Source: Eledone cirrhosa
Lineage: Eukaryota
Length of the DNA: 64,000 nucleotides
NCBI GenBank assembly: GCA_964016885.1
Contig: OZ024742.1
Span: 177,692,001-177,756,000 of the forward strand
Direction: 5' to 3'
The notes beneath the pieces were generated by a model. It made no database searches. It saw only the letters and a program-made list of their open reading frames with translations, and was not told the origin of the DNA. Position numbers and translations under genes: made by a program. Below are positions 2,096 through 48,327 of the stretch, piece by piece; the stretch's first letter is position 1, and each line of letters starts with the position of its first letter.

Positions 2096-2182
<87 letters not shown>

Positions 2183-2631: not shown

Positions 2632-2717
<86 letters not shown>

Positions 2718-7515: not shown

Positions 7516-7908
7516 TGTTCAGTTACTGATGGTTGACCAGTTTGAGCATTCAATGCTAATATGTTGGTCCGGCTACCGAAGTGGGTGTCTACATTTGCGT
7601 TTACACCAGTTTTACTATGCGTAACAAGTAGAGTGTTAATAATAATAATAATAATAATAATAATGTTTTCTTTATTAACCACAAGGGTTCACATAAAGTA
7701 GACATTAAGGACAGTACAGGACAATACAGGACGGTACAAATGGGCATTTCTGCGTGTAAAAAAACAGGGGGTTGAAATAAAATAACAAAGAAAAATTCCC
7801 CAATAGGGGGGAGACTTCCAAGGGACATTTGTGGAGAAAGCCCATTAAAAGACCACAGTGGCCCTGACCACCAGGGCAAGTGCCCTCTCCCAGTTTTCCA
7901 CCTTTAAT

Positions 7909-9486
7909 TTACAGACACATACTCAGAGAAGGCCCAATCATTCGGGCCATACTTGCTTCTCTCACCCATCTTTCAACAAAATGCTGGGAAGAGAGCACTT
8001 CCCTCTCTACCCTGATTTTCCTTTTCAAATGAAATTTGAAAAAGTTAATCAGGGCATCACCGAAGAGGTAAGTGCTCGTCTTCAGCCCTTTCAAACGTGT
8101 CCACCATACTATCTCTTTCGCCATGGCCACCAGACAGATAAAAACTGCCTGCCCTTCCAGGCTAAAGGAAGGGGGCGGGGCAATGCTCGGACACTGGACG
8201 AGTGCGTGCAGGACGGTTTCGTCGCCCTGCGCGCATCTCGGACATGCCCGGCTGACGGCACCTCCATGCCTGTAGAGTTTATCCCGAACTGGCAAGGCTC
8301 CTCGGTAGCACTGCCAGGCCAGAGATTTCTGGAAGTTGTCCATAGGCCCCGGCCCGAAAGTTCTTCCGAAGAGATTGGCTAGTTGATTTTCGTCGACGCC
8401 TAGATTTTCCCCAAGTACGTCGTCGCTCTTACCCTCCACTAATCCTCTATAGAACGCCGAGGTGGAGTTTCCACCGATCACATTGCCCGATTGGTCGAGG
8501 GCTGTAAGCGCCTGAAGACATTCCAGTCTCCAGGCGCTCCCTCTCGGTCTTCGCTTGACCCAGGACTGCAGCTCCGTCAAGGAAACGAGCTGGGGAAATA
8601 CGCGCCTAGCAAACGGCGACCACACCTGATCACCGTCGAGGAAGAGGTGGAGATGTTGTAGCCTGAGCGCGTGCCTGCGCATCATCAGCCACGGCATGCC
8701 CAGCCCTCCACGTAGCGGGTGTTGACAACAGATGGACCGCCTGACCATCGGAGCACGTCCCTTCCACAAAAAGCGAAAGAGCAAACGCTCCAGCGCAGTC
8801 AGGCGAGGCTTAGGACAAGGTACGACGGTCAGGCGGTAGCAGATGACAGACGCGATGTACGCGTTAGCCACCTCCGCTCGACCTTTCAGGGATAGCTTCC
8901 TCTCCGCCCATTTCTGGGTGAGAGAAGCCACCCTGCTCGTCACCTCGTACCAGTTTTTGTCCGTCTGTTCAAAACGCCTGAGCAGGTTGGTGAGGCTCTT
9001 GCACCCTCCACCCCTATCCGCTAATCCCACACAGTCCCAGCGTGCATCTAAGATCCCGTTCCAGTCGCCCACTAACACTAAAGAGCGGGACGTTCCAAGA
9101 AAGGTCTCCAGACGCCGGAAGAAATCAGGCCGCCCTGCTCCTGTCGGGGCATAGACGGCCACTAGCCTGAAAGCTTGCCCGTCTCCGCTGGTCACGTCCA
9201 GCACCACCAGCTTACCCTCTGGGTCCAGGAAGATGGCCCGTATGGCGAGATCCAAACCTCTCCGAAAAAGCACAGCAACTCCTCCACCCGATCCAGGACG
9301 GCTGGGAGATGCGTACACATCGTAGCCGCCGAAGATCGGTGCGAAGGCCCGTGCTTCGGAGATTCTGGTCTCGCTGATGGCCACTACATCTATGTTTAGT
9401 GACCTGAGGTCATTGAGCAGGTGACCCTGCTTCCATGACGACCCCAAGCCACGCGCATTTATGCTGCCTATTCTGAGTGAGGTCAT
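7909..9486 (-). pseudogene. Tx1 ORF2 lacking the RT domain (partial APE endonuclease fused in frame to the C-terminal CCHC region)
   Basis: SINARGL, ISET and GDWN APE motifs are joined directly to KNWYEVT...CPRCAQGDETVLHALVQC. The YADD region present in the paralog at 35122-38559 is absent. Confidence 0.85.
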
Positions 9487-9521
9487 GTTTAAAATAGAGT
9501 GGAAAAGATGGGAAAGACCAC

Positions 9522-11619
9522 TTACCATACTTTTGGTAGAGGAGGGATGGTTTTTACATCCCTTTTCACTTGATCGTCTGGTGAAGGGACCGTTGAATCG
9601 TCCCTTCGGCTGGTCGTCGACTCTTCTAAGAGAATGTCTGAATATACTCTTCGATTGATGGTTCCTACTAGGTCCCTGAAATCACCAACTGCGTTGGGGA
9701 ATTTCGTTTTAATGTTTGTGTATTGTTTCTGTGCTATTTTTAGCAGTCTTATGTTAGTTGGCGTTTTGATTGGTGCTGGTATTATGTAGTCCTGTTGTGA
9801 AATGTCTGTGTGTTCAATTATGTAAGTCATTAGTTTCTTGTTGTGTGTGTTTATTGCCGTGCATTTGTTTTTCTGGGGGTGGAGTGTGGTTCTGCTATTT
9901 TCTTGTCGTTGTTGCTGGGTGTGTGTGTTTTGTTGTTGTGTTTGCGATGTTGGTGCTTGTGGTGGTGGTGTTGAAGGTGTTGTTGGCGGTGGGGTTGTCG
10001 CCGGTGGTGATGGTGGTGCTGGTGTGGGTGGTGATGGTGTTGGTGGTGTTGCTGCTGTGGGTCTCTTTGCAGTAGACTTTACCCTTTTCACCATTTCTTT
10101 CCTCCCTTTTCAAAGGCGACGATGCGCTGCTTCTGCGTTTGTGCCTTCTTGCGACCTTTTGCCATCCCTCTCCCACCTCACACTCCATGTCTGATTCTGT
10201 GAGGTCGGGGAGGGGTACCAGCTCCACTCTTGCACTTGTTGTTGTTGGTGATGTTTGCACTGGAGTCTCTGTTGCAGCTGCATTTGGTATTGCTGTTGTT
10301 GTTGTTAATATTTCCACTGCTGCTGCTGTTTTTGATTTCCGTGGAGTGGGTATGGGTGCCACGGACCTATCGTTCCTGGTTGCCGCTTGTCCTGTTGCTG
10401 GTAGCCGTGGAGCCGGATTCGGAAGGAGGGGGGTTTTCTCCTTTCTCAGGGTCTTCTCGTTGCAGAAGGCCCTGAGGTGAGTCTTCGATCCACAGCGAAA
10501 GCATTTCGGGCGTTTGCCCTCAACACTTATGGGCAGTTGAGTGCCGTTATCGAAGTCTATCACATCCGGGATAGCTTCGATGCACTCCTGGTTGGTTTGG
10601 ATTAGCATCTCAATGGAGGAGCCGACCCAATCTTCTCTTACTTTTTTCTGTACTTGCAGTACAGTTGTTTTGTCCTCGATTCCGACGAGGACAGACGCGG
10701 CCAGCCAAGAGGTGGTCATTCCGGGGGGGACGTGGGTCAGTTTGACCCTCACAATTTTTTGCCCGCAGTAGGAGGGCACCAACACCATTTCCTCGCTCCT
10801 TAGGGTCACTACTGATTGGGCCTTTGCCTCCTGGGGTGTGGCAAAAAGTACGTCTACGGTGGCATATTTTTTGCCTCGGGTGATGTGCGTTTTCCGCTGC
10901 CACACAGACCCCAAGGCTTTTTGTATTTGGGCCTCTGTGGCTCTTTCCACCCTACGGGATTTTGTACTTACTGTACGGTACGTGACCGTACAGTGCTCTT
11001 GGGTTTCGAAAAATGTTTCCGCTGCCTTGCAGATTGCTCGGTGTCTGTTCTTTGTCACCATCTTCTTCGCTTCCTCTAATTCCTCATTTGTTATGAGGAT
11101 TGTTTCCAAGTTTTTCGCAATACCTGCAAATGAGATTGGTTTTTCTCTGCTGTTGTTGTTGTCGTCAAAGCTGCTGGTACTTTTGTTGTTGCTGCAGGTA
11201 CTACGACTACTGCCTCCGCCGCTGTTGCTGTGGTTGTTGGTGGTGTTGCTGCTGCTAATGCTGTTGTTCTTTATGCTGCTGGTGATGCTGTTGCGGCTGC
11301 TACTGTTGTTTACATTGTCACTGTTGCTGTTGTTATTACGGCTGCTACTGCTATTATTCCTGACGTCAGACGAATGAACTGGGTTTTCGTATTTCCCGCA
11401 CACCTGTTTCGTCGCTGTCGTCGTCGTCGTGGAGAAACCTTGCACGCTTTGCACGAGACTTTTCTTTTCTTTCGTCACTTGCGAAAGAGAAGGGAGGGAG
11501 AGAGACACATTTAAAGAAGGGAGGGAGAGAGACAATCTTCTCTCTGCTGTAGTGATGATTGAGGAAGAAGAAGACAGAATGAGTGGGAGTGACGTATGAA
11601 ATTTCTTTTTCGTAGCCAT
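9522..11619 (-). pseudogene. Tx1 ORF1 (nucleic-acid-binding, CCHC knuckle), frameshifted near 10100
   Basis: CFRCGSKTHLRAFC zinc knuckle with low-complexity N/S/T tracts. The C-terminus continues in ORF 9522-10094, which is homologous to the ORF1 C-termini at 38584-39060 and 42886-43286. Confidence 0.8.
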
Positions 11620-11959
11620 GTTGTTTTTTTGTTTAAAATGAAATTTTGGGTACAAAACCCCAATAATTGGTTATTTAACCCCGAAGGGCCAAATAACGGA
11701 CAGAAAGACCCCTCTCACGAGGAGGAGGGTGTCTTTATCAACAATTTGGTTCAAGTTTTAAACAATTTACAATTGTTTTAACGGTTAATAATTACTATAC
11801 CTTACAGAGCCGAGCCTCCGTCAACCATGGCATTCAATAATAATAATAATAATAAATTGTAATGCACTGGGTGATTGCTGGCTTTGTGCCTGGAGTGGAG
11901 ACAGTTATTAATAATTTCATTCTTAAGCCACGCAATGCTCACATTAAGGAACCACTCAT

Positions 11960-15827: not shown

Positions 15828-15877
<50 letters not shown>

Positions 15878-17160: not shown

Positions 17161-17219
<59 letters not shown>

Positions 17220-30770: not shown

Positions 30771-30859
30771 TTTCGCTAAACGGATTCAAACCACCGACCT
30801 AAGGATAACAGTTAATTTCGAACTACAGTACTCCGCTCTACCAACTGAGCTATCGCGAG
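30771..30859 (-). pseudogene. Intron-containing tRNA-Tyr(GTA) pseudogene
   Basis: GTA anticodon and 16-nt intron are present, but the B-box reads GTTTGA and the acceptor and anticodon stems are mismatched. Confidence 0.8.
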
Positions 30860-31255
30860 AACACTGGAATATCGTTCAATGTTAATGAACGCTATCTGAT
30901 GTTAATGAACGCTATAACAATCTGACAACAATAATTTAAGGCGTCATATGAATAGTTTACTCACACACATACATACAGTTGCACACAGAAACACTCAAAC
31001 ACTTTTATACAATACATCCACCACTATATATATATTCAAACGTGGACAAAATTAACAAGATGTATGATTTATTATACTACTAGACAAATCCAGTTCAATC
31101 TCCTATGGAGAATGCTTTCTGTAGTTGGCTTATTGTTCAGAATATGAAAATGAATTCAAGTTGCCAGAAGAATGGGGAAAGAAATACAAATAATTGTAAA
31201 ATTATTAAATGAAATATAATAAAAAAAAAAATATCGCTTGACATAGGTAGATATA

Positions 31256-34200
31256 TTTCTTTATTTGCCACAAGGGCGCACAAGAAAAGGGGACAATACA
31301 AAGACATGCCGGGGATTTTACATACAGTCATGTAAAAATATAAAAACAAACAATTACAACAATCGAAATCCCCAATACGGAGGAGGCGCCACAAATGGGT
31401 TGTTTAATACCCCGTCGATAGAACAACCCTCAACTCCAGGAGCGTGTTGCGCAAGTGCTCCTTTCTTCCTTTTGCTCTCTTCTTCAACCTACAGGCTTAT
31501 AAACAGAGAAGGCCCAATCACTCGGGCCATTTTCGCTTCATTCAGCCACCTTTCAGTAAATTTACTGGGGTGCAGTGCCTCTCTCTCCACCCTGATTCTC
31601 CTTCTAAAATGATACTTAAAGAAGGGTATCAATTGTTGTCCACAGAGAAAGGCATCTGTCCTCAGTCCTCTCATCTCGTACGCCATATAACCTCTTTTAC
31701 CATAGCCACGGTACTGAGGAAAACCGCCTCTCTTTCGTTTTTGAAAGAGGCTGGCGGTTTGATCCTTACTATGGACTCGGCAGTCAACTGGATTTGTCCC
31801 ATACGCGACAGCTGTTCTTCTGCATAGTTCCACAGGTCGGTTACGCCCGGGCAGTGTACAATTGCGTGCAGGACTGTTTCAATGTCCTGCGCGAATCTTG
31901 GAACGTCCTCTTGGAAGGATCCCTGCCGGGGCTTCTGTGCCTGTAGATCTTGTCATGAACCGGTAGAGCTCCTCGGCAGCACTGCCAAGCCAGGGACCTC
32001 TGGAAGTTGTCCATAGGTCCCGGGCGGAAAGTCCTACCAAACAGACTGGTGAGCTCATCGTCTTCGACGCCCAGAGTCTCTCCGAGCACGTCGTCGACCT
32101 TGTAACGTACAATCCCTCTATAGAATGTTAAAGTGGAGTCTCCACTGATTGCTGCGCCCGATTGCCAGAGGACTGTGAGCGCCTGAGTGCATTCAATGTG
32201 CCAGGCGCACATCATTTTCGGTCTTTTCTTCACCCAGGACTGCAGCTCCGTCAGCGAGACGAGCTGTGGGAAAGCCTGTCTCAAACGGTGCCCAGACCGG
32301 TTGGGGGTCGGTGAGGAATACCTGGAGATGCCGCAGCCTCAACGCATGTTTGCGCATTATCAGCCACAGCATTCCCAGCCCTCCGTTGGAAGGGTGCTGA
32401 CGGCAGACGGATCTCCTCACCAGCGGAGCCTGCTTCTTCCACAGAAACTGGAAGAGCATGCGTTCTATCTTGGCGAAGTGTTCACGGGGACAAGGCATGA
32501 CAGTCAAGCGGTAGTAGATGAGGGACGCTATGAAAGTGTTCACCACCTCCGCTCGACCTTTCAAGGACAGTTTACACTCTGCCCACTTCTGGGTGAGTGC
32601 AAACACCTTGGCCGTGACCTCGTTCCAGTTTTTCTCCACCTGGAGGTCTGGACCGAACCAGACCCCGAGCAATTTCACCGGTCCGTCCGTCCAGCGTCCA
32701 ACGACGCTGTCGGACGTCATCGGTTTGCCTCTCCGCGTACCGAGTTGCAAACCGACAGACTTGTCCGGGTTTAGTTTTGCTCCCGTCAGCGTTTCGCATT
32801 CTTTCAGTAAGTTGCCGATCACCCCGATTTCCGAGGTGCTCGATACCATTACCATAACGTCGTCGGCATAAGCCGATGCCGCTTTGCGCAGTCTCGGTTC
32901 TAGAGGGATGCCCTGCAACAGCTCCAATTTCCGCAGTAGTGGCTCTAGAGTCAATACATACAGAATGGAGGAGAGAGGGCACCCCTGTCGAATGGAACGC
33001 GTTATTGCGAACGGCTCCGATAGGTAGCCGTTCACCTTGACCCTCAAGCAGATGCTGGTGTGCATCGCCTCGATCCATCCTCTGAACACGGGACCGAAAC
33101 CGGCCGCCTTGAGAACCGCTTCCAAGTATCGATGGTCGACCCTATCGAATGCCTTAGACTGATCCAAGTGGATCAGAGCCCCACCGAAGCCGGGTTTACT
33201 ACCCACCTTCTCTATGATGTATCGCATGAGGTGGAGGTTGTCGTGTATGGACCTGGTCGGGATTGCACGCGTTTGCGCTTTCCCTACCAGGTTCTCCACG
33301 ACAAGCGCCAACCTCTTTGCTAGCACCTTGGTCAAAATCTTTAACTCTGTGTTTAGCAGAGTTATGGGCCTGAAATTGCTTATCTCATCCCCCTTGTTCT
33401 CATCTTTCCTGATCAGCGTTACTACGCCTCTGCCTACAGAACTGGGAAGTGGATGTTGCAGGTGTTTGTGTTGTGTTTGGTTTGGAGTGTTGATGTTGGG
33501 GTTTTGGTGTTGGTAATAACACCTTGTTTGTCCTCGGTTTGTTTAAGAGAGGGCAAAAGGCTTTTAAGTGTGTGGTTTTCCCACACTTATGGCACTGATG
33601 TCTCTTCTCCTCCACTAAAATGGAGATGACATCTTCCTCAAGGACGATCCTGTTCGGTATTTTCTCAACTCTCTCTGGCCTCATTTGTACCAGAACGTCG
33701 ATGCAGGTTCCAAACCAGTTATGCCGGTCTGTCCTGTCTACAGATAGGAGGGTGTCCTCATCCTTCTTCAGGATGCAGCGTAGGATCCACCATATGTTAA
33801 GCTCTGCTGGGATCCTGGTTATTTTTATTTTGTATGATCTTCTTCCCATGTATGTAGGGAAGAAGATGTGTTGATCCGTTTTTATTGAGTGAACCGAGTG
33901 TTTTTGTGCCAGAGTTTCGCTCTTAAAAAGCACTGACACACTTCCATACTGTTTACCTCTTTGGTAGTATACCACGTCTGGCTTGATGACTTTTAGTGCA
34001 GCTTCAATAGTGCTTGGTGGGAGCGTTATGGGTTTTTTGGTAGTGATGTCAACTGTTCTATAAATTAGCTTCTTTTTCTGTGTCATTTCTCTTACTTGTG
34101 GGGGTATGTGTATGTGTGGGGTGTCTCCCTCAAACGTCATATAGTTGCAAGCTTCTTCCAAACATTGGCACATTTGGGAAATGTCCATGCAGTAGTATTT

Positions 34201-34806
34201 AAAATCCTGTTGCTTAGCAACTGTTGCGGCAAATGAAATGTTGTTATTGTTGTTGTTGGTGGTGATGATGGTCTCATTCGTTGTGTTACCACTGATTCCT
34301 TTTGTTGTGTTGTTGTTGTTCTCATTTATTGTGTTGTTGTTGTTGGTTGTGGTGGTATTAGTGTTCGCTACACATACTTCCTTCTGTGTGTGGATACATG
34401 TGACGTTTGTGACGTCAGGTGTGTTCAGTTGCTTACAAGCAGCTGAAGCTTGTTCCTCTTCGAAATGTTGAGGCGATAATGTTGACATTCCTCTGTCCAT
34501 GTTTGCTACTCCCTGATGGAAAAGTAGGCATGGCTTTCCCTTCCCATCTTCTTGTTTTGACAAAGAAGTGGGTGCCTTTGCTTCAGCCATTTTTTAAAAA
34601 TTGAGGTGTTTTGCAAACATTTTTTTTTCGAAAATATTTTGGATGTTTTTGCCCTGAGGGGCACGATATTTTGGGAGACTGACCAGGTCAAAATTTGACC
34701 TGTCAGTCCTTCTACAAATTGGTATGAAAATAAAATTCACAATGACGAAATTCTAAAGAAATTTAAACAAAACTTACCGAGCAAGTTTAACACATGTGTC
34801 CATCCC
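31256..34806 (-). mobile_element. Tx1-like LINE copy A: both ends present, large internal deletion joining ORF1 to the RT part of ORF2 near 33449
   Basis: ORF1 from 34590 with CHKCGKTTHLKAFC; ORF2 remnant with SKAFDRV, RQGCPLS and YADD, frameshifted downstream; 3' GTGGCAAATAAAGAAA. Confidence 0.9.

Positions 34807-34856
<50 letters not shown>
34807..34856. repeat. (GATA)n between Tx1 copies A and B
   Basis: Pure tetranucleotide run. Confidence 0.95.
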
Positions 34857-37800
34857 TGTTTCTTTTATTTGCCACTAGGGCATCAAAAGTGGGACAAGTA
34901 CAAAGGGGGGAGTTTACACAAAAAGGCGTCCTCAATAAGGAGGAGGCAATAACAAAATATAAAAATAAAATAAGATATAACAAAAAATAAAATTTATAAC
35001 AAAATCCTCAATAGAGAGGAGGCGCCTTGGGGGGGTCGCACACACCCCCGAAAAAAGTGTGCAACCCTTCTCCTCAGGAGCACAGAGAAGGGGTGCTCCC
35101 TTGGTCTTTCATCTTCCTCACCTATAGTCTGATGTAGAGTGAAGGCCCATTCACACAGGCCATTCTCGCCACTTTCACCCATCTTTCATAGAAACGGCTG
35201 GGGTGCAGCACCTCTCTCTCCATCCTGATCCTTCTTCCGAAATGATATCGGAAGAAACGGACCAGTTGTTGGCCAGAGAGAAAGGTGCCTGACCTCAGTC
35301 CTTTCAGACGCGTCCACCATACAACCTCTTTCGCCATGGCTATTAAGCACAGAAACACCGCCTCTGCTTCATCTTTGAAGGGGGGAGGCGGCTTGATCAT
35401 TACAATAGACTCGGTGGTCAACCGGATCGGTCCCACCCTTGACAGCAGTTGTTCGACATAGCCCCACAGATCGGCTACGCCCGAGCAGTGTACCAATGCG
35501 TGTGCAACGGTTTCCTCGTCGCACACGCATCTGGGACAGATCTTTTTGGCGGGGTCCCTACCCGGGCGCCCGTGTCTGTAGAGCCTTTCTCGAACGGGTA
35601 AAGCCCCTCGGTAGCACTGCCAGGCCAGGGACTTCTGGAAGTTGTCCATAGGTCCCGGGCTGAATGTCCTACCGAACAGGCTGGCCAGTTCGTCCTCCTC
35701 CATGTCTAGGGCTTCTCCGAGGGCGTCGTCGCACCTGCTGCGTACCAGCCCTCTATAGAATGTTGCGGTGGAGTCTCCACTGATAACCGGATCCGCCTGC
35801 CAGAGGGCGGTGAGCGCCTGGGCACACTCAGTGTGCCAGGCGCCCAGTTTTCTCGGTCTCTGCTTGACCCAGGATTGCAGCTCGGTGAGTGAGACGAGTC
35901 TGGGAAAGGTTCGTCTCACAAACGAGGCCCATACCGGTTGTCCGGTGAGGAATACGTAGAGGTGCCGTAGCCTTAATGCGTGTTTACGCATCATTAACCA
36001 CGGCATCCCCAGCCCTCCTTTCGAAGGGTGTTGACAGCAGATGGATCTCCTCACCATAGGAGCCCGCCTCTTCCAAAGGAATTGGAAGAGCGCGCGCTCC
36101 ATCTTGGTGAGGGTTTCCCTTGGGCAGGGCACTACGGTCAGGCGGTAGTAGATGACGGACGCTATGTAGGTGTTCGCCACCTCCGCCCGACCTTTCAGGG
36201 ATAGTTTGCAACTGGCCCACTTCTGGGTCAGTGCAAACACCCTGTTCGTAACCTCCGCCCAGTGTTTCTCCACCTGGAGGTCCGGTCCGAACCAGACCCC
36301 GAGCAACTTCACCGGGCCCTCCGTCCAGCGTCCGACGACGCCATCGGAGGGCATCGGTCTGCCCCTCCACGTGCCGAGTTGCAAACCGATCGACTTGTCC
36401 CGGTTCAGCTTAGCCCCTGTGAACTTTTCGTACTCCTCCAGTAAGGTGCCGACCGCCTCGATTTCGGAGGCCGTCGACACCATTACTGTCACGTCATCGG
36501 CGTAGGCCGACACCGCTTTCCGCAATCCCGGTTCCAAAGGGATGCCCTGCAACAGCTCCAACTTCCGCAGTAGTGGCTCGAGAGTCAACACATACAGAAG
36601 GGAGGAGAGAGGGCACCCTTGTCGGATGGACCGCGCGATTTTGAACGGCTCCGAGAGGTAGCCGTTCACCTTGACCCTAGAGCAGATGCGGCTGTTGTGC
36701 ATAGCAGTGATCCAGCCCCTGAAAACGGGTCCGAAGCCTGCCGCCGCTAGCACCGCATCCAGGTAACCATGGTCGACCCTATCGAACGCCTTAGATTGAT
36801 CCAAGTTGATCAGAGCCCCACCAAAGCCGGGTTCGTTCCCAACCCTCTCTATGATGTATCGCATGAGGTGGAGGTTGTCATGGATGGACCTGGACGGGAT
36901 AGCGCATGTCTGCGCATCTCCCACCAGGTTGCCCACGACAAGCGCCAACCTCTTTGCTAGCACCTTGGCCAAAATCTGTAACTCTGTATTTAGCAGAGTT
37001 ATGGGCCTGAAGTTACTTATTTCGTCCCCCTTGTTCTCGTCCTTCCTCACTAGCGTGACTACGCCCTTGGTCACAGTACAGGGAATTCTCCCGTTCTGTT
37101 GCCAGTTGCAGTAGACCGCCTCGAGGAGATCGGGGAACAAGTCCGGCATAGCTAGATATAATTCGTAAGGAAGACCATCGAGACCCGGGGATTTGCGTTT
37201 GCCGCATCGGCTCAGCACGTCCTCTATCTCAGCGGCCGAAATCGGCTCCTCGCAGGACTTCGCCTCCCTGTCCGAGAGGCGCGGCAGGCCGTCGAGGTAT
37301 GGACCGAAGTCCACGTTCCCAACCGGCTCTCCGCCCCTCCCGAACAGTCGGGCAAAGTGCCTTTGAAAGGCCTCACACATCTGCTTAGGCTCAAGAATCG
37401 CCGGTCCATCCAGGTCTCGCAAAGACCGGATGGTGGATTTAGTTCCACTGTTGGCCTCTGTCACGCGGGCCCAGCTAACAGCTTTGGTCCCCTCGTTCCC
37501 TAGAGCACGTATTTTACTTCGGACAACGCAGCCTTCGTGCTTCGCGTCGAAAAACTGGCTCAAAGCCGTTCTCGACGCTAGCACTCTGGCCACGTCGCCG
37601 CTTCTAATTACCTCTTCTACTCTATCTATTAGCTCCCTTTCCTTCCTATTCCTATCCGCAGCTAGAACCTTACTAAATTCTATCGAGACTACTCTAATCT
37701 CTCTCTTTAGAGATACCCACCACCTGCTGTTGACGATCGCTCCAGTCAACCGTTCCTTAACTAACGTACTAATCCGATTCCTGTAGGCTCTACTTGCCGG

Positions 37801-39158
37801 CAAGGACAAGTTGAGCTTCCAGTAACCGGGGCCCTGTCTATGAGTTCTGTCAAGGTTGACCATGCAGGTCACTAATTTGTGGTCTGAATAGCCAACCATG
37901 CGCATTTTTGGACAACTTAAAAAGTCCTTATCCTTAATTCTAACTAAGAACCTATCTAGGTACGACCTAGATGATCCGCTACGATTTGCCCAAGTCCAGG
38001 TTGGCGCAGTCGGAAAATCTAGTCGATATCTATCGGCCAGGTCAAATCGACCGATTAACCCTTTGAGGCTATTACACGCCTCTCTATCGGGGCAGGCCCC
38101 TACGTAGTCCCAGCGTGCATCTAGGATACCATTCCAGTCCCCCACTAATAGCAAGGAGCGGGACGTCCCTAGAAAAGTCTCCAGACGATGGAAGAAGTCC
38201 GGTCGCATTGACCCGAAAGGGCCGTAGGCGGCTACCAACCTAAACGCTCCGCCTTTACCACTGCCAAGGTCCAGAACCACTAGTCGACCCTCCGGGTTCA
38301 AATGTACCATCTGTGTTGCGAGACCCAGATGTTTTTGCAGCAGAACGACAACTCCACCTCCACCTCCGGGCTGACAGAGAGATGCGTGCATCTCAAAGTC
38401 ATCAAAGGTGGGGGCCAGCTGTCGCACGTTGCTGATCCGGGCCTCGCAAATAACCATCACATCTATACGTTGTGACCTGAGGTCATTTAGAAGCATTGCT
38501 TGCTTCCAAGTTGAGCCCAGGCCACGCGCATTTAAACAGCCTACTCTTAGCATAGCCATGTTGGTGGTGAAGAGAAAAGGCACTTACCTCTCTGCGTCCC
38601 GGGTATCGGGCTGCACAATTTCCATTAGGGTGGGGGATGGGTTGTTGGGTGGGGTGGTGGTTTGTGGAAGTGTGGGGGCATCAGTGTGTTGTGTGGTTGG
38701 GGAGCTTGGAGTTGTGTGGGTGTTTGGGGAGGGGGTGGGATAGTTTTTTAGGAGGACGCGGTTAATGGGCCCGACGCAGGGGGGACCCACGTCCTCTTTA
38801 AAATTGTTTTTTAAAGTTTTATAGGTGTCCTGTGGGGCCTTAATCATTTTGAGGTGGGGGAAATCCCCTGCCTGGGTGAAGTTAGGCCCTTGTGTTTTTA
38901 TTAGATTGTTGTTGTACACAATGTTTAACAGTTTTTTGTTTCTTGTATTTATGTATGTGTATGCATGTTTTTGTTTTTGTGTGGTGTTTTTTGTTTGCTG
39001 TTGTTGTGAGCTCTTTTGTGTTGGTGTCAGTGTTATGTTTTGGGGAGGGTTTTTTTTCATTTGTGTATCTGAGGTGTGTTTTCTTTTTTTTCTTTTGATT
39101 GTGTGGAAGTGCTCCTCCTCGTCTGACGACGAACTAGGGTCATCTTCCGCGTTGGAGG
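34857..39158 (-). mobile_element. Tx1-like LINE copy B, 5'-truncated in ORF1, intact ORF2
   Basis: ORF1 C-terminus at 38584-39060, uninterrupted ORF2, (GATA)n on both sides. Confidence 0.95.
35122..38559 (-). CDS. Tx1 ORF2: APE endonuclease, reverse transcriptase and CCHC zinc finger (1145 aa from ATG 38559)
   Basis: CLNARGL, GDWN, YLDRF and SDH (APE); SPGLDG, FRPITLLN, KAFDRV, RQGCPLS and YADD (RT); CPRCVCDEETVAHALVHC. Confidence 0.93.
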   Translation of the reverse strand: MAMLRVGCLNARGLGSTWKQAMLLNDLRSQRIDVMVICEARISNVRQLAPTFDDFEMHASLCQPGGGGGVVVLLQKHLGLATQMVHLNPEGRLVVLDLGSGKGGAFRLVAAYGPFGSMRPDFFHRLETFLGTSRSLLLVGDWNGILDARWDYVGACPDREACNSLKGLIGRFDLADRYRLDFPTAPTWTWANRSGSSRSYLDRFLVRIKDKDFLSCPKMRMVGYSDHKLVTCMVNLDRTHRQGPGYWKLNLSLPASRAYRNRISTLVKERLTGAIVNSRWWVSLKREIRVVSIEFSKVLAADRNRKERELIDRVEEVIRSGDVARVLASRTALSQFFDAKHEGCVVRSKIRALGNEGTKAVSWARVTEANSGTKSTIRSLRDLDGPAILEPKQMCEAFQRHFARLFGRGGEPVGNVDFGPYLDGLPRLSDREAKSCEEPISAAEIEDVLSRCGKRKSPGLDGLPYELYLAMPDLFPDLLEAVYCNWQQNGRIPCTVTKGVVTLVRKDENKGDEISNFRPITLLNTELQILAKVLAKRLALVVGNLVGDAQTCAIPSRSIHDNLHLMRYIIERVGNEPGFGGALINLDQSKAFDRVDHGYLDAVLAAAGFGPVFRGWITAMHNSRICSRVKVNGYLSEPFKIARSIRQGCPLSSLLYVLTLEPLLRKLELLQGIPLEPGLRKAVSAYADDVTVMVSTASEIEAVGTLLEEYEKFTGAKLNRDKSIGLQLGTWRGRPMPSDGVVGRWTEGPVKLLGVWFGPDLQVEKHWAEVTNRVFALTQKWASCKLSLKGRAEVANTYIASVIYYRLTVVPCPRETLTKMERALFQFLWKRRAPMVRRSICCQHPSKGGLGMPWLMMRKHALRLRHLYVFLTGQPVWASFVRRTFPRLVSLTELQSWVKQRPRKLGAWHTECAQALTALWQADPVISGDSTATFYRGLVRSRCDDALGEALDMEEDELASLFGRTFSPGPMDNFQKSLAWQCYRGALPVRERLYRHGRPGRDPAKKICPRCVCDEETVAHALVHCSGVADLWGYVEQLLSRVGPIRLTTESIVMIKPPPPFKDEAEAVFLCLIAMAKEVVWWTRLKGLRSGTFLSGQQLVRFFRYHFGRRIRMEREVLHPSRFYERWVKVARMACVNGPSLYIRL

Positions 39159-39214
<56 letters not shown>
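39159..39214. repeat. (GATA)n between Tx1 copies B and C
   Basis: Pure tetranucleotide run. Confidence 0.95.
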
Positions 39215-39215
<1 letters not shown>

Positions 39216-39445
39216 ATTTCTATTTATTTGCCACGAGGGCACAAAAGAAGGGGACAAATACACAGTGGGGGAGTTTACATAAATCGAGTAAAGAAAAAGG
39301 AATAACAATAATAATATAATAATAAAAAGTCCTCAAAAGGGAGGGGGCGCGTTCGGGATTGCACATACCCCCGAAAAGTGTGCAACCCTTTTCGCGGGGG
39401 AAGCCCAGAGAGGAGACGCTCCCCCTTTCCTCTTCACTTCTTCAC

Positions 39446-42400
39446 CTACAGAACAATGTAGAGAGAAGGCCCATTTACACGAGCCATTCTCGCTTCTTTC
39501 ACCCACCTTTCATAAAACTGTCTGGGGCCAAGCACTTCTCTCTCCATCCTGATCCTTCTTCCGAAGTGGTATCAGAAGAAGTAAACCAGGTGATGGCCGG
39601 AGAGAAAGTCACCCGACCTCAGACCTTTCAGGCGCGTCCACCACACAACCTCTTTCATCATGGCTATTACGCACAGAAAGACCGCTTCTGCTTCGTTTCT
39701 GAAGGGAGGAGGCGGCTTGATGTTCACCACAGACTCGGCGGTTAATCGAATCGGCGCCACACGCGACAGCAGTCGTTCGACGTAGCCCCACAGATCGGCA
39801 ACGCCCGGGCAGTGTACCAGTGCATGCGCAACGGTTTCCTCGTCGCGCACGCATCTGGGACAGATCATTTTCGCGGGATCCCTGCCCGGGCGCCCGTGTC
39901 TGTAGAGCTTTTCTCGAACGGGCAGAGCCCCCCGGTAACACTGCCAGGCTAGGGACCTCTGGAAGTTGTCCATGGGTCCCGGGCCGAAAGTTCTACCGAA
40001 CAGGCTGGCCAGTTCGTCCTCCTCCATGTCTAGCGACTCTCCAAGGGTGTCGTCGCCCCTGCTAGCCACCAACCCTCTATAGAATGTCGAGGTGGATTCT
40101 CCACTGACAGTCGGGTCCGCTTGCCAGATAGCCGTGAGCGCCTGGGCACACTCGTTGTGCCAGTTGCCCAGTTTTCTCGGTCTTTGCTTCACCCAGGATT
40201 GCAGTTCGGTGAGCGAGACGAGCTGTGGGAAGGCTCGCCTCACAAACGGGGCCCACACCGGCTGACCGTTGAGGAATACCTGTAGCTGCCGTAGCCTCAA
40301 TGCGTGCCTACGCATCAACAGCCACGGCATACCCAGCCACCCTTTCGAAGGGTGCTGGCAGCAGATGGATCTCCTCACCATGGGAGGCCGCTTCTTCCAG
40401 AGGAACTGGAAGAGCATGCGTTCCATGATTGTGAGCTTTTCCTTGGGGCAAGGCACGACGGTCAGGCGGTAGTAGATGACGGACGCTATGTAAGCGTTCG
40501 TCACCTCCGCCCGACGTTTCAGTGATAGTTTGCACTTGGCCCACTTCTGGGTCAGCGCAAACACCCTGCTCGTCACCTCGCCCCAATTCCTCTCCACCTG
40601 GAGGTCCGGTCCGAACCAGACCCCGAGCAGCTTCACCGGGCCCTCCGTCCACCGCCCGACGACACCGTCTAACGGCATCGGTTTGCCCCTCCACGTTCCG
40701 AGTTGCAAACCGACTGACTTGTCCTGGTTCAGCTTAGCCCCCGTCAGCCTTTCGTATTCCTCCAGTAGGGTGGCGATCGCCCCGATTTCCGAGGCGTCCG
40801 CCACCATTACTGTTACGTCGTCGGCATAGGCCGAGACCGCTTTGTGCAATCCCGGTTCCAGGGGTATGCCCCGCAGCAACTCCAACTTCCGCAGCAGTGG
40901 CTCGAGAGTCAATACGTACAGAAGGGAGGAGAGGGGGCACCCCTGTCTGATGGATCGGGTGATTTGAAACGGCTCCGAGAGGTAGCCGTTTACTTTAATC
41001 CGAGAGTAGATGTTGCCACTGTGCATGGCAGAAATCCAGCCCCTGAAAACGGGTCCGAAGCCCGTCGCCGCTAGCACCGCATCCAGGTAACCATGGTCGA
41101 CCCTATCGAACGCCTTAGATTGATCCAAGTTGATCAGGGCCCCACCAAAGCCGGGTTCGTAGCCAACCCTCTCTATGATGTATCGCATGAGGTGGAGGTT
41201 GTCGTGAATGGACCTGGACGGGATAGCGCATGTCTGCGCGTCTCCCACCAAACCACCCACCACAAGCGCCAACCTCTTCGCCAACACCTTGGCCAAAATC
41301 TGTAACTCTGCATTCAGCAGAGTTATGGGCCTAAAGTTACTTAAGTCGTCCCCCTTGCTCTCGTCCTTCCTCACTAGCGTGACCACGCCCTTGGTCACAG
41401 AACAGGGAATTCTCCCGTTCTGTTGCCAGTTGCAATAGACAGCCTCGAGGAGTTCGGAGAACAAGACCGGCATAGCTAAATAAAGTTCGTATGGTAGACC
41501 ATCGAGACCCGGGGATTTGCGTCTGCTGCATTGGCTGAGCGCTTCCCCGATTTCAGTGGCTGTGATTGGCCTTTCGCAGCAGTCCGCTTCGCCGCTCGAA
41601 AGACGCGGTAGACCGTCGAGGTATGGACCGAAGTCCACATCCCCGTCCGGCCCCCCGCCACCTCCGAACAGTCGAGCAAAGTGCCTTTGAAAGGCCTCGC
41701 ACATTCGCTCAGGTTCAAGGATCACCCGTCCATCCTGGTCTCGCAAAGACCGAATGGTGGATTTAATCCCACTCTTGGCTTCTGTCACGCGGGCCCAGCT
41801 AACAGCTTTGGTCCCCTCGTTTCCTAAAGCACGTATTTTACTTCGGACAACGCAGCCTTCGTGCTTCGCGTCAAGGAACTGGCTCAACGCCGTTCTCGTC
41901 GCTAACACTCTGGCTACGTCTCCGCTCCTAATCGCCTCTTCTAGTTTATCTGTTAACTCCCTTTCCTTCCTATTTCTATTCGCCGCTAGTTCCTTACTGT
42001 AACCTATCGAACTTACTCTAATCTCTCTCTTTAGAGATACCCACCACCTACTGTTGACGATCGCTCCCGTCAACCGCATCTTAACTAAGCTACTAATCCG
42101 GTTTCTGTAATCTTTCTTTGTCGGTAAGGACAAGTTCATCTTCCAGTAACCGGGACCCTGTCTATGCGTTCTATCAAGGTTGACCACGCAGGTCACTAAT
42201 TTGTGATCTGAATAGCCAACCATGATCAGTTCTGGACAACTAAATACGTCCCTATCCTTACTCCTAACCAAAAACCTATCTAGGTACGATCTAGATTGTC
42301 CACTGCGGTTTGCCCAGGTCCAGGTTGGCGCAGTTGGACAATCTAGTCGAAATCTATCGACCAGGTCGAATCGATCGAGTAACCCCTTGAGGCTGCTACA

Positions 42401-42888
42401 CCCCCCTCTATCGGGACATGCCCCTGCATAGTTCCAACGCGCATCTAGGATTCCATTCCAGTCCCCCACTAAAAGCAGGGAACGCGACGTTCCTAGAAAA
42501 GTCTCCAGACGCTGGAAGAAGTCGGCTCTTTCCGCCCCGAAGGGAGCATAAAGACCGACCAGTCTGAAAGCCCCGCCTTCACCGCCTCCGACGTCCAGCA
42601 CCAGTAATCGACCCCCCGGGTCCGAGTGAACAATCTGTACGTCGAGAGTCAGACGTTTATCCAGCAGTACGGCAACTCCCCCCCCCCCCCCGCCTCCGGG
42701 TTAACAGAGAGATGCGTGCATCTCAAAGTCATCGAAGGCGGGCGCCAGCTGTCTCACGCTGCTGATCCGACTCTCGCAAATAACCATCACATCTATACTT
42801 TGTGACCTGAGGTCACTTAGAAGCTTTGCTTGCTTCCAAGCTGAGCCCAGGCCACGCGCGTTCAAACAGCCAACTCTCAATTGATCTA
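39446..42888 (-). pseudogene. Tx1 ORF2 of copy C (APE-RT-CCHC)
   Basis: A 1009-aa open stretch aligns with copy B ORF2. The start codon position reads ATA, and there is a premature stop 42 codons before the terminal TAG. Confidence 0.85.
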
Positions 42889-44719
42889 TTTTGGTGTTGA
42901 AAGTGAAGAAAGAAAAGCACTTACCTCTCCGGGTTGCGTAATTTCCATGGCATCAGGTGTGTTGGGTGGAGGGATGTTTTGTGGTGGTGTGGGGGTACAC
43001 GTGTGTGGTGGGGTTGGGGTATTTGGAGTTGTGTCAGGGAGAGGGGCGGTTATGGGGAAATCTTTCAAGAGGACGCGATTCAACGGTTTTAAACAGGGGG
43101 GGGGCTCACGTCCCGTCTAAATTGTTCTTTTAAGGAACGATAAAGGTCCAGAGGGACCTTTATCATTTTTAAATGGGTGAAGTTCTCTGTTGAGATAAAG
43201 TTTGGCCCTTCGGTCTGCACCATAGGGTTATTGTTTATTAATTTAACCAGTTTTTTGTTTTCTTTATTTATATATGTGTATTGCAACGTCTTTTTTGTGA
43301 TGCTGTCAATGTTTCGGAGAGGGGAGGCGCAGATTTATTTTTGTTTGTTGAGGGTGGGGTGTTTTTGATTGGAGTTGGTGTTTGTGTGTGGGTTATTTGT
43401 GGTGTGCTGGGTGTGTGTTTTCTTTTTTTTCTTTTAACTTGTCTGAAGGCTTCTCCTCCTTCTTCTTCAGAAGTTGGGGGAAACTCTTCAGCGCTAGGTG
43501 GGAGGGACGTGTTGTGTGGTTGTTTTTTTTTTGCGGGAGGGGTAGATTTGTTACTGTTTTTTTTATTATTTGTTTGGAATGGGTTTTGTGGTGGTGGTGG
43601 TAATGTTTGTGTCGTGCTTGTGGTTGGTGATGGTGGTGGTGATGTTTGTGTTGTGGTTGGTGGTGGTGATTTTTGTGCCGTGCTTGTGTTTGGAGCTGGT
43701 GGTGGTGATGTTTGTGTTGTGTTTGTGGTTGGTGGTGTCTGTATTTTGTTTGCTGTGTGTGGTATTAGTGTATTTTTGGAGGTGGGTGGTGTTGGTGTAC
43801 TGTTTGTGGTGGGTGTGGGCAATAGTTCTTTTTGGGGGATACGTTTCGGGCAGTTAGCCTTAACGTGTCCCCTTTCCATGCATAAATAGCATGCTGGTCT
43901 TCTCCCCTCTACAATTATGTCTATTGGGGTAAGGTCATCCAGCCAGATGCGATCCGGGATTTGTGCTATTCTTTCGGGCCTCATTTGGACTAGTATGTCG
44001 AGGCCCATTCCCAGGAACGCATCTCCAGTTGCCTTCCCCATTGACAGCATTGTGTCTTCGCCCATATCAATGAAGCCAGCAATAGCCCACCAGAAGTCCA
44101 TTGTGGGCAGCATTGTTTTTACTTTTACTCTCTGTGTTCTTCTACACATGTAGGAGGGATAGAAGCTATATGTTGTCGATGAGAGTGGGCTTAGGGAAAG
44201 CTTCTCCGCCGTTTCCCTGTCTCTTGTTAGGACCGAAATGCTGCCATAGAGTCGGTCCTTTCGTATGAAGAGAATATTCTTCATATAGTCTTTTAGGACT
44301 AACTCTATTTCCATTTGGCTGGGCTGTGCTGGCTTTCTTGTCTGGTTCAGTATAGTTCTGTAGAGAACTGTGTTTTCTGCTCTGGCTTTCTTGAATTCTG
44401 GGGGGGAGTTAATGGAAAACATTCCGTTCTCCCCCAAAACAATGTGTTTCTTTGCTTCGGCCAGTTTTTCTCTGGCGGCAGTTAGGTCAATTGGTGTGTA
44501 TGTAATGGATTGTTTTGTTTTCTGGGCGAAAGTTGCCCTGTTGTTATTTGTATTATTTTCTGTTTGTTTGTTTTCTGTTTGCTCATTTTCCTTAACATTT
44601 GTTTTTTCATTTTCTTTGTTTGTTTCATTGTCTAATTTTGTTGTAATTATTTTTTGTTCTTCAGACTTGGGGGGCGTGGCAGAGCTAATGGCAGACAGGT
44701 CTGCCATCTTTTCCGCCAT
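42886..44719 (-). pseudogene. Tx1 ORF1 of copy C
   Basis: Zinc knuckle and P/T-rich tract; the C-terminus is split into ORFs 43089-43286 and 42886-43083. Confidence 0.8.
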
Positions 44720-44921
44720 GCTGCCAAGAAAGAAATTTTTCGGCAAAAATAGATATTTATTTTACCCCCTAAAAAGGGGGTAAATGCAAAAATGTTTCCC
44801 TAAAAAACAGGGGTTAGTGTTCCAAATGTGTTGCACTGAAAAATTTATCCGGTACTTACAATAGTAAGGGTAAATCCCGATGGAATAGCGGAGCCGATGT
44901 GAAGCGTGTCTTACTCTATCA

Positions 44922-44950
44922 AGATAGATAGATAGATAGATAGATAGATA
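44922..44950. repeat. (GATA)n between Tx1 copies C and D
   Basis: Pure tetranucleotide run. Confidence 0.95.
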
Positions 44951-47850
44951 TGTTTCTTTTATTTGCCACCAGGGCATCAACAGTGGGACAAGTACAATCG
45001 GGGGAGTTTACAAAACAAGGCATCCTCAATAAGGAGGAGGCAATAACAAAATATAAAAAAAAATAAAATATAACAGAATAAAATTATTAACAAAATCCTC
45101 AATAGAGAGGAGGCGCCTTGGGGGGGCGCACACACCCCCGAAAAAAGTGTGCAACCCTTTTCCTCAGGAGAACAGAGAAGGTGTGCTCCCTTGGTCTTTC
45201 ATCTTCCTCACCTATAGTCTGATGTAGAGTGAAGGCCCATTCGCACCGGCCATTCTCGCCACTTTCACCCATCTTTCATAAAAATGGCTGGGGTGCAGCA
45301 CCTTTCTCTCCCTCCTGATCCTTCTTCCGAAATGATATCGGAAGAAACAGACCAGTTGTTGGCCAGAGAGAAAGGTGTCTGCCCTCAGTCCTTTCAGACG
45401 CGTCCACCATACAACCTCTTTCGCCATGGCTATTACGCACAGAAACACCGCCTCTCCTTCGTTTTTGAAAAGGGGAGGCGGCTTGATCGTTACAATAGAC
45501 TCGGTGGTTAACCGGATCGGTTCCACCCTTGACAGCAGTTGTTCGACATAGCCCCACAGATCAGCAATTCCCGAGCAGTGTACCAATGCGTGTGGAACGG
45601 TTTCCTCGTCGCACACGCATCTGGGACAGATCTTTTTCGAGGGGTCGCTACCTGGGCGCCCGTGTCTGTAGAGCCTTTCTCGAACGGGCAGAGCCCTTCT
45701 GTAGCACTGCCAGGCCAGGGATCTCTGGAAGTTATCCATGGGTTCCGGGCTGAATGTCCTACCGAACAGGTTGGCCAGTTCGCCTTCCTCCATGCCTAGG
45801 GCTTCTCCGAGGGCGTCGTCGCACCTGCTAACCACCAGCCCTCTATAGAATGACGAGGTGGATTCTCCACTGACAGTCGGGTCCGCCTGCCAGAGAGCCG
45901 TGAGCGCCTTGGCACACTCGGTGTGCCAGGTGCCCAGTTTTCTCGGTCTTTGCTTGACCCAGGATTGCAGCTCGGTGAGTGAGACGAGTCTGGGAAAGGC
46001 TCGCCTCACAAACGGGGCCCACACCGGTTGACCGGAGAGGAATACCTGGAGGTGCCGTAGCCTTAATTCGTGTTTACGTATCATTAGCCACGGCATCCCC
46101 AGCCCTCCTTTCGAAGGGTGTTGACAGCAGAGGGAGCTCTTCACCATAGGAGCCCGCTGCTTCCAAAGGAATTGGAAGAGTGCGCGCTCCATTTTGGCGA
46201 GCGTTTCCCTTGGGCAAGGCACAACGATCAGGCGGTAGTATATGACGGACCCTATATAAGTGTTCGCCACCTCCGCCCGACCTTTCAGGGACAGTTTGCA
46301 CTCGGCCCACTTCTGGGTCAGTGCAAACGCCCTGTTCGTTACCTCACCCCAGTTCTTCTCCCGGTTCAGCTTAGCCCCTGTAAACCTTTCGTACTCCTCC
46401 AGTAAGGTGCCGATCGCCCTGATTTCCAACTTCCACAGCAGTGGCTCTAGAGTCATTACATACAGAAGGGAGGAGAGAGGGCACCCTTGTCGGATGGACC
46501 GCGAGATTTCGAATGGCTCCGAGAGGTAGCCGTTCACCTTGACCCTAGAGCAGATGCGGCTGCTGTGCATGGCCTTGATCCAGCCCCTGAAAACGGGTCC
46601 GAAGCCTGCCGCCGCTAGCACCGCATCCAGGTAACCATGGTCGACCCTATCGAATGCCTTAGATTGATCCAAGTTGATCAGGGCCCCACCAAAGCCGGGT
46701 TCGTTCCCAACCCTCTCTATGATGTATCGCATGAGGTGGAGATTGTCGTGGATGGACCTGGACGGGATAGCACATGTCTGCGCATCTCCCACCAGGTCGC
46801 CCACGACAAGCGCCAACCTCTTTGCTAGCACCTTGGCCAAAATCTGTAACTCTGTATTTAGCAGAGTTATGGGTCTGAAATTATTTATATCGTCCCCCTT
46901 GTTCTCGTCCCTCCTCACTAGCGTGACTACACCCTTGGTCACAGCACAGGGAATTCTCCCGTTCTGTTGCCAGTTGCAGTAGACGGCCTCGAGGAGATCG
47001 GGGAACAAGTCCGGCGTAGCTAGATATAGTTCGTATGGAAGACCATCGAGACCCGGAGATTTGCGTTTGCCGCATTGGCTCAGCACGTCCTCTATCTCAG
47101 CGGCTGAAATCGGCTCCTCGCAGGACTTGGCCTCCCTGTCCGAGAGACGCGGCAGGCAGTCGAGGTATGGACCGAAGTCCACATCCCCAACCGGCTCCCC
47201 GCCCCTTCCGAACAATCCGGCAAAGTGCTTTTGAAAAGCCTCGCACATCTGCCTAGGTTCAAGGATCACCCGTCCATCCTGGTCTCGCAAAGACCGGATA
47301 GTGGATCTGCTCCCTCTTTTGGCTTCTGTCACGCGGGCCCAGCTAACAGCTTTGGTCCCCTCGTTTCCCAGAGCACGTATTTTGCTTCGGACGATGCAGC
47401 CTTCGTGTTTCGCGTCGAAGAACTGGCCCAGGGCCGTTCTCGACGCTAGCAGTCTGGCCACGTCGCCGCTTCTAATTGCCTCTTCTACACTATCTACCAA
47501 CTCCCTTTCCTTCCTATTTCTATTTGAGGCTAACTCCTTACTAAATTCTATAGAGACTACTCTAATCTCTCTTTTGAGAGATCCCCACCACCTGCTGTTG
47601 ACGATGGCGCCCGTCAACCGCTCCTTAACTAAAGTGCTAATCCGGTCCCTGTAAGCCTTACTTGCCGGTAAGGACAGGTTGAGCTTCCAGTAACAGGGTC
47701 CCTGTCTATGAGTTCTGTCAAGGTTGACCATGCAGGTCACTAACTTGTGACCTGAATAGCCAACCATGCGCATTTTTGGACAACTTAAATAGTCCTTATC
47801 CTTAATTCTAACTAAGAACCTATCTAGGTACGACCTAGATGATCCGCTAC
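44951..47850 (-). mobile_element. Tx1-like LINE copy D (same family as B), 5'-truncated in APE, two in-frame deletions including YADD
   Basis: 853-aa ORF highly similar to B with junctions KLE|IRAIG and KLNRE|KNWGE; 3' UTR nearly identical to that of B. Confidence 0.93.
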
Positions 47851-47894
<44 letters not shown>

Positions 47895-48025
47895 CATTTC
47901 TATATTAGCCACAACGGCACAAAAGAAGGGGACAAATACAAATGCGGAGTTTACATACAGGTATATGAAAATAAAACTATAAATAAAATAACAGATAACA
48001 ATTGAAATCTCCAATAGGGGGGAGG
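47851..48025 (-). mobile_element. (GATA)n (47851-47893) plus 3'-end remnant of a fifth Tx1 copy (E)
   Basis: TTTCTATATTAGCCACAACGGCACAAAAGAAGGGGACAAATAC matches the 3' end of copy C. Confidence 0.8.
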
Positions 48026-48327
48026 TGTTACACAGGTCAGGATTGGAGAGGTTAAGGGACATTGTCCGGAAAAGGAGACGGCGGTTTGCGGGCCACATCA
48101 TTGGTTTGCCGCAGATCGACCTGCTCATATTGCCATGGATTGGGTACCAGAAGGTGGCAGGAGAGAACGGGGAAGACCACGAAAAACATGGCGGAGCACA
48201 TTCAGGGAGGACCTGCAGGAGATGGGAATTACCTGGAGAGGTGCTAGAAGGGCCGCCAGTGACAGGATCAACTGGAGGAGGCTCGTCGCCCAATGATCCA
48301 CAAGGGACTGGAGGAACTAAGACTAAG

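What the first reader, a model, noticed from the sequence alone, without database searches (positions are those of the whole stretch)
31241..48025. Five Tx1-like LINEs from several families stacked head-to-tail in (GATA)n: a self-renewing target
Seen: copies A-E are all on the minus strand, and every internal junction is a pure (GATA)n run (34807, 39159, 44922, 47851), whether the neighbouring 5' end is complete (A, C) or truncated (B, D). D's truncated end shares GAT microhomology with the repeat: B continues GCTACGATTTG where D reads GCTACGATAGA. Known: Tx1 families target microsatellites (Kibi, Koshi) and multicopy RNA gene arrays (Dewa, Keno, Mutsu); I do not recall a described GATA-specific family. 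Inference: strand-specific (GATA)n targeting, with each insertion leaving a fresh tract and so building retrotransposon arrays.
Basis: partly seen in the sequence, partly recalled or inferred. Interest (0 to 1): 0.75.

Follow-up and report, generated by a model that had tools for sequence, protein, structure and literature searches.

The report
GATA-repeat-seeking LINEs that stack head-to-tail
Five different jumping-gene (LINE) copies sit head-to-tail with a GATA repeat at each joint, as related copies do across this animal genome (likely an octopod's), likely because their enzyme cuts that repeat and each insertion duplicates the landing site, while a close sister lineage does the same in ATT repeats; repeat-seeking LINEs are known, but I found no report of this target.

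Summary
Five L1/Tx1-type LINE copies of different subfamilies lie on the minus strand at 31241-48030, with four pure (GATA)n joints. The two outer ends are not GATA runs, and copy A has a large gap and is likely a composite.

The preference is genome-wide. Of 85 position-sampled copies, 57 have (TATC)n at the 5' joint (43 of 67 truncated copies), against 0.35% by chance, and none lies in the opposite orientation. It is not strict: about a third sit in (TA)n or other sites, nearly all starting TAT[C/A]T, many with 13-22 bp duplications. Nested duplications at three other loci show re-insertion into an earlier copy's duplicated site. 3,701 of 12,640 long TATC tract starts follow such an element end. 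A sister lineage in the same window uses (ATT)n (30 of 30 5' joints).

Microsatellite-targeting Tx1 families and tandem stacking are already in print. I found no GATA target in eight paper searches; Repbase and Dfam could not be searched. This scan has noted the same system at least eight times on other DNA of this genome. Verdict: real, a new member of a known kind; the nuclease's role is inferred.

The parts
47895..48030 (-). Copy E: 3' UTR fragment only; 5' side abuts an RTE-like fragment, not GATA
   Evidence: nearest genomic relatives 96%
47851..47894 (+). (GATA)11 joint E|D
44951..47850 (-). Copy D: 5'-truncated inside the endonuclease with 3-base microhomology, two internal deletions
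   Evidence: nearest relatives 96-97%
44922..44950 (+). (GATA)7 joint D|C
39215..44921 (-). Copy C: full length (5.7 kb); ORF1 43268-44761 with CCHC knuckle; ORF2 with in-frame stops near 42702 and 39573
   Evidence: relatives 96.6-99.1% over long stretches of three loci
39159..39214 (+). (GATA)14 joint C|B
34857..39158 (-). Copy B: 5'-truncated in ORF1; open ORF2 (35122-38559) with APE endonuclease, RT and zinc finger
   Evidence: relatives 99.2-99.4%
34807..34856 (+). (GATA)12 joint B|A
31241..34806 (-). Copy A: 5' head and ORF1 joined at about 33444 to an RT-3' part; frameshifted; decayed tail; likely composite
   Evidence: nearest relatives 94-95% for each half
48030..48325 (+). RTE-like LINE 3' fragment flanking E (label from recalled C-terminal motif)
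7664..11835 (-). Sister-lineage copy F (internally deleted), with (ATT)n on both sides (7637-7664, 11836-11855): internal control

Best explanation
The locus is a stack of five separate LINE copies whose lineage sits in one orientation in (TATC)n/(GATA)n; its endonuclease likely nicks the GATA strand at Y|TAT[C/A]T sites, the RNA end likely pairs with the nicked strand to prime copying, and insertion duplicates 13-22 bases of the site, so later copies likely land in the duplicated tract again. Shown: flank preference, orientation, junction register, duplications, nested re-use at other loci, and different ages of the five copies (oldest outside, youngest inside). Inferred: the nick and its position, RNA-primer pairing, and the order of events in this array. 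Arrays need no special tail-seeking, because element ends already supply at least 29% of the long tracts.
For: 5' flank TATC in 57 of 85 sampled copies and 43 of 67 truncated ones, against 0.35% of 79,760 background windows; opposite orientation 0 of 85. 3' joint positions 3-5 read TAT in 84 of 85. Duplications with non-repeat letters start at TAT[C/A]T on both sides, e.g. L043, L049, L072, L074, L080. L052 holds three copies with nested duplications; in L094 and L096 the duplication includes the first bases of the downstream copy's head. 44 of 85 copies have a same-strand neighbour. 3,701 of 12,640 long-tract starts follow an element-type end; the reversed control gives 5. A-type heads 26 of 30 and C-type heads 24 of 30 have TATC upstream. 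Sister lineage: 30 of 30 heads in (ATT)n. The endonuclease keeps its catalytic residues and models as L1-EN-like, TM 0.80.
Against: 28 of 85 copies have non-TATC 5' flanks, 15 of them in no repeat class. (TA)n flanks (8 of 67) are no more frequent than background, p=0.23. Flank data cannot separate nuclease choice from RNA-tail pairing. Full-length heads begin with target-like letters even in TA sites (L205, L261), so their flanks are weaker evidence than truncated ends. The window's outer ends show no duplication or GATA run. The sample is the first 86 of 1,974 matches on one contig and one subfamily group, and includes at least one duplicated pair (L080/L081). Survival bias towards harmless sites was not tested.
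Confidence: 0.72

Rival explanations
1. Target choice comes mainly from the RNA. A loosely specific nuclease nicks AT-rich DNA, and only nicks whose 3' end pairs with a read-through (UAUC)n RNA tail prime efficiently. The TATC/ATT split would then be a change of tail, not of enzyme.
For: The two letters after the element end track the subfamily (CT in 15 of 20 V40-type copies), so the RNA end is copied up to the repeat. A tail-dependent site choice is proposed for RTE LINEs (PMC6007223 passages). L1-EN point mutants did not change nicking (PMC1950540 passages).
Against: 14 of 28 non-TATC insertions carry no TATC unit yet nearly all start at TAT. The register is fixed across subfamilies. Tx1L endonuclease is sequence-specific on its own.
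Confidence: 0.2
2. The (TATC)n runs are only element-made tails, and the arrays arise by template jumping between RNAs or by tandem DNA duplication, with no targeting of pre-existing repeats.
For: A 15.8-kb duplicated unit (99.4%) lies inside a 43-kb array on C1. Four C-type joints have only a minimal spacer (L212, L213, L216, L217). One tandem pair differs at only 13 of 4,359 sites (L315).
Against: 27 of 55 copies with TATC 5' flanks have no element end upstream. Copies in other sites mostly lack the tail. The window's copies span 94-99% identity to their nearest relatives and five subfamilies, which one event or a duplication cannot give.
Confidence: 0.05
3. Insertion is near random, and copies persist beside repeats and other elements because those sites are harmless.
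For: Arrays lie in repeat-rich DNA. Passive accumulation is proposed for Waldo-A/B (PMC3812793 passages).
Against: About 180-fold enrichment in a 99%-identical young family, fixed orientation and register, no enrichment at the roughly 25-fold commoner (TA)n, and a sister lineage sorted into a different repeat.
Confidence: 0.03

Closest known systems
Kibi (TC)n and Koshi (TTC)n of teleosts; crocodilian Tx1 families in (TTCC)n/(TTTC)n (PMC4494074 passages and section 15; PMC3812793 passages)
   Same: APE-type L1/Tx1 LINEs inserted preferentially in one microsatellite; well above that paper's 20% rule for target specificity.
   Different: Target units are TATC and ATT rather than pyrimidine-only repeats; host is likely a mollusc; two sister lineages with different repeats share one genome. 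Kinship to Kibi/Koshi was not tested.
SINEU-3/Tx1-Mar tandem insertions and Utopia tandem copies (PMC4494074 passages; PMC4640811 passages)
   Same: Sequential insertion into a duplicated target gives tandem copies on either side of the duplication.
   Different: Targets there are a transposon or U2 genes; here a simple repeat collects many subfamilies of different ages, in arrays up to tens of kb.
Dong (TAA)n, Waldo/Mino (AC)n, Togen (TG)n
   Same: Microsatellite-targeting non-LTR elements; Dong shares the TAA/ATT repeat with the sister lineage.
   Different: Other clades; Dong and Togen belong with the restriction-like-endonuclease groups (Togen, Dong recalled).
L1-Tx1 families annotated in Octopus vulgaris (PMC13282606, part 1 of 3 and passages)
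   Same: 13 recently active L1-Tx1 families, 421 near-full insertions; possibly the same or related families.
   Different: The main text has no occurrence of 'target' or 'insertion preference'. Supplements were not read, and sequence identity to those families was not tested.

Membership tests
L1 group of APE-type non-LTR retrotransposons | ORF2 with N-terminal APE endonuclease, RT and C-terminal zinc finger, closer to L1 than to R2 | tested here: met
   Pfam Exo_endo_phos, RVT_1, zf-RVT; human L1 ORF2p E=1e-46 against R2 5e-19; model matches L1-EN, TM 0.80
L1 group of APE-type non-LTR retrotransposons | Variable 5' truncation, fixed 3' end, target-site duplication | tested here: met
   67 of 85 truncated, lengths 44-5761 bp; duplications of 13-22 bp where the flank is informative
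Tx1 clade | Two ORFs, ORF1 with a CCHC knuckle (feature recalled) | tested here: met
   CCHC in ORF1 of A, C, F and locus L099
Tx1 clade | RT phylogeny places it with Tx1L/Keno/Kibi rather than L1 proper | not testable with these tools
   No named Tx1 reference was returned; the Tx1 label rests on architecture and recall
Microsatellite-specific Tx1 (Kibi/Koshi type) | More than 20% of flanks are one repeat (rule in PMC4494074) | tested here: met
   57 of 85 5' flanks
Microsatellite-specific Tx1 (Kibi/Koshi type) | Target is (TC)n, (TTC)n, (TTCC)n or (TTTC)n | tested here: not met
   Target is TATC, and ATT for the sister lineage: works like Kibi/Koshi but is not filed as one
Microsatellite-specific Tx1 (Kibi/Koshi type) | Endonuclease itself cleaves the target sequence | not testable with these tools
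   Needs a nicking assay
Dewa/Keno/Mutsu (RNA-gene-array targets) | Insertion in or between tRNA, U2 or 5S genes | tested here: inconclusive
   A tRNA-like gene lies 380 bp from copy A, but the 85 printed joints are repeats or varied sequence with no shared gene-like flank; loci were not scanned for RNA genes

The most novel reading that the evidence does not exclude
A recent specificity switch is caught inside one genome. Two sister LINE lineages with about 60% identical endonucleases split the microsatellites (TATC versus ATT) through a few residues, including the tip of the DNA-probing hairpin (Ser/Thr versus Ile/Met). Each lineage now breeds and occupies much of its own target class, so the genome's GATA microsatellite complement is largely retrotransposon-maintained.
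Probability: 0.3. Interest if true: 0.65.

Novelty: new member of a known kind. Interest (0 to 1): 0.45.

Why it matters
How APE-type LINEs choose microsatellites is described as not well understood (PMC3812793 passage), and the L1-versus-Tx1L loop graft did not transfer specificity. Two young, closely related lineages with different simple targets give a much tighter pair for separating nuclease read-out from RNA-primer pairing. Practically, at least 29% of long GATA tract starts here follow an element end, so GATA markers in this animal often sit beside multicopy DNA, and such arrays help explain local transposon hotspots. The strategy itself and tandem stacking are known, which caps the surprise.

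Tried and rejected
Naming the family. The protein search gave 16 unnamed or hypothetical relatives, cluster look-up gave no names, and the Atlas gave no result. The endonuclease alone found only two weak unrelated matches among solved structures; the full ORF2 and the profile found L1.

Expression. No RNA holder was listed. Contigs of four runs showed only that relatives exist in other runs and say nothing about RNA ends.

A third lineage with another repeat. A distant-homologue search returned a second ATT family (29 of 30 tails ATT) and a further TATC-type subfamily (4 loci), not a new target.

Copy E's 5' flanks elsewhere. The script found no reference end, so only 3' tails were scored (23 of 30 TATC).

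Target duplication around the whole array. None was found.

tRNA-spacer targeting (Dewa-like). Considered because of a tRNA-like gene beside A; dropped since sampled joints share no such flank.

Dropped rows. L101's first copy (5' end off the locus) and the repeat of L069 inside L068; L025 was mis-oriented; L132 and L158 were mis-parsed; two endonuclease clusters with 2 and 6 stops were left out of the alignment.

The long ATT-family array on C1 near 423.36-423.41 Mb was seen only as spaced hits and not read.

Full report
Observation. The window holds exactly four (GATA)4+ runs, all 100% pure, at 34807-34856, 39159-39214, 44922-44950 and 47851-47894. Read on the minus strand the order is E, D, C, B, A, and each internal joint is an element 3' end, (TATC)n, then the next head. 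The copies are different subfamilies (75-93% alike). B has an open ORF2 with APE endonuclease, RT and zinc finger. C is full length with two in-frame stops in ORF2. D has two internal deletions. A keeps a 5' head but lacks about 2.1 kb, and its halves have different nearest relatives, so it is likely a composite. The outer ends are not GATA runs and show no shared duplication. The genome is 3.0 Gb in 1,796 contigs. I take it to be an octopod from a recalled SINE and its repeat make-up; no call names it.

Census. A 24-base 3' anchor of the B group occurs 1,974 times. I fetched 80 of the 93 regions covering the first 100 matches on contig C1, which hold 86 matches, and scored 85. The 30 bases upstream of the 5' joint were TATC in 57, TA in 8, TCTATA 2, TACC 2, TAA 1, other 15, and GATA (opposite orientation) in 0. 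Among truncated copies, whose heads cannot carry encoded repeats, 43 of 67 were TATC. Background from twenty fixed 10-kb stretches is 0.35% TATC and 8.8% TA in 79,760 windows, so TATC is enriched about 180-fold and TA is not (p=0.23). The other subfamilies agree, though these sets are best-scoring hits and include the window copy: A-type heads 26 of 30, C-type heads 24 of 30, D tails 15 of 20, E tails 23 of 30.

Target or tail. Of 28 copies whose 5' flank is not TATC, 21 have 0-1 TATC unit at the 3' end, so the long tracts come mostly from the site. Positions 3-5 after the element end are TAT in 84 of 85 and position 6 is C or A. Where flanks hold non-repeat letters, duplications of 13-22 bases (including 1-3 bases of microhomology) start at Y|TAT[C/A]T on both sides. 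From this I infer a nick on the GATA strand. The two letters before the repeat follow the subfamily, so the RNA is likely copied from inside the repeat edge, where it could pair with the nicked strand.

Self-renewal. At L052 three copies are separated by nested versions of one duplicated site. At L094 and L096 the duplication includes the first bases of the downstream copy's head. These show insertion in front of an earlier copy. 44 of 85 copies have a same-strand neighbour, a lower bound because some heads were not in my library; 28 of 55 TATC-flanked copies follow another element's end; none has an opposite-strand neighbour within 600 bases. Genome-wide, 3,701 of 12,640 starts of six-unit TATC tracts directly follow an element-type end (reversed control 5). 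Interrupted tracts are counted more than once, so 29% is likely a lower bound, and I did not read these ends to confirm each is a LINE. Stacking is thus of the order expected from target supply. In this array the nearest relatives are 96% (E), 97% (D), 98-99% (C), 99.3% (B) and 94% (A), so the oldest copies are outside and the youngest inside, as repeated insertion into inner tracts predicts. Against a pure insertion model: a 43-kb array on C1 contains a 15.8-kb duplication, L080/L081 are one duplicated insertion, and four C-type joints have minimal spacers.

Sister lineage. Copy F at 7664-11835 is about 72% like A-D and has (ATT)n on both sides. Its family has ATT at 30 of 30 heads and 27 of 30 scored tails; a second family has 29 of 30. 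Among 218 element ends collected from all loci then held, clusters were either TATC-type or ATT-type, without mixing of the two. Endonuclease trees separate the two groups (support 0.96 and 0.76). The stretch that aligns to the L1 hairpin reads N-R/H-S/T-G in six TATC-type subfamilies and N-R-I/M-G in three ATT-type ones. This is one contrast between two clades, so it is only a candidate; in L1-EN point changes did not alter nicking, while whole-loop grafts did (PMC1950540 passages). The B domain keeps its catalytic residues, models at pLDDT 90 and matches L1-EN best.

What is known. Kibi, Koshi and crocodilian Tx1 families target (TC)n, (TTC)n, (TTCC)n and (TTTC)n, and tandem SINEU-3 copies around a duplication are ascribed to sequential insertion (PMC4494074, passages and section 15). 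A review lists ACAY, AC, TC, TTC and TAA targets and calls the mechanism not well understood (PMC3812793 passages). Utopia is occasionally tandem (PMC4640811 passages). Tail-dependent site choice is proposed for RTE (PMC6007223 passages). The O. vulgaris annotation lists 13 active L1-Tx1 families with no target statement (PMC13282606, part 1 of 3 and passages). PMC5786205 and PMC10294476 passages added nothing. Eight searches (listings and abstract starts) showed no GATA-targeting family. Kojima and Fujiwara 2004 was seen only as cited, no supplements were read, and Repbase and Dfam were not available, so absence from print is not established. Tx1 membership rests on architecture and recall; L1-group membership is tested. 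This scan's notes describe the same system at eight other places in this genome; they are unchecked and not independent support, and I reached my reading before seeing them.

Verdict. It is a new member of a known kind, useful chiefly as a close TATC/ATT pair for testing how these elements choose targets. Interest 0.45.

Noticed in passing
window 7637-17224: A second cluster built in (TAA)n: the ATT-lineage copy F on the minus strand, then two plus-strand LINEs of another type (RT plus a C-terminal PD..D-like motif; R4/Dong-like by recall) at 11856-15828 and 15878-17160, each between (TAA)n runs. Two unrelated LINE types share one repeat class in opposite orientations.
   Followed up: partly
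window 30771-30859, 55021-55109, 55888-55976, 58178-58266, 61468-61556, 62556-62644 (all minus): Six tRNA-like genes with an apparent intron (Tyr-like by recall) in a decayed repeated unit; Rfam hits, none by ARAGORN.
   Followed up: no
window 49618-50718 minus: PIF1-like helicase fragment, likely a Helitron remnant.
   Followed up: no
L102:7000-7080: A TATC-lineage copy with a poly(A) tail inserted in a (TAA)n run; possibly mobilised another way.
   Followed up: no
L080, L081, L082 (C1 108.72-108.83 Mb): Copies inserted in a minisatellite at a TATAT site; L080 and L081 are one insertion duplicated with its flanks.
   Followed up: partly
L351, L095, L352, L096, L319, L097, L353 (C1 134.030-134.073 Mb): An array of about 43 kb with at least 8 element ends, containing a 15.8-kb internal duplication.
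   Followed up: partly
G000 C1 423.36-423.41 Mb (L335, L337, L342): ATT-family hits at multiples of about 5.84 kb suggest a long tandem array of full-length copies.
   Followed up: no
L003 and L009, 370-440 bp past the 3' end: Opposite-strand relatives facing tail-to-tail, in 2 of 30 loci.
   Followed up: no
window 674-2746: A roughly 510-bp unit repeated in tandem with (TA)n runs, with one inverted piece.
   Followed up: no
window 6901-7143: 28-bp minisatellite, 8.7 copies.
   Followed up: no
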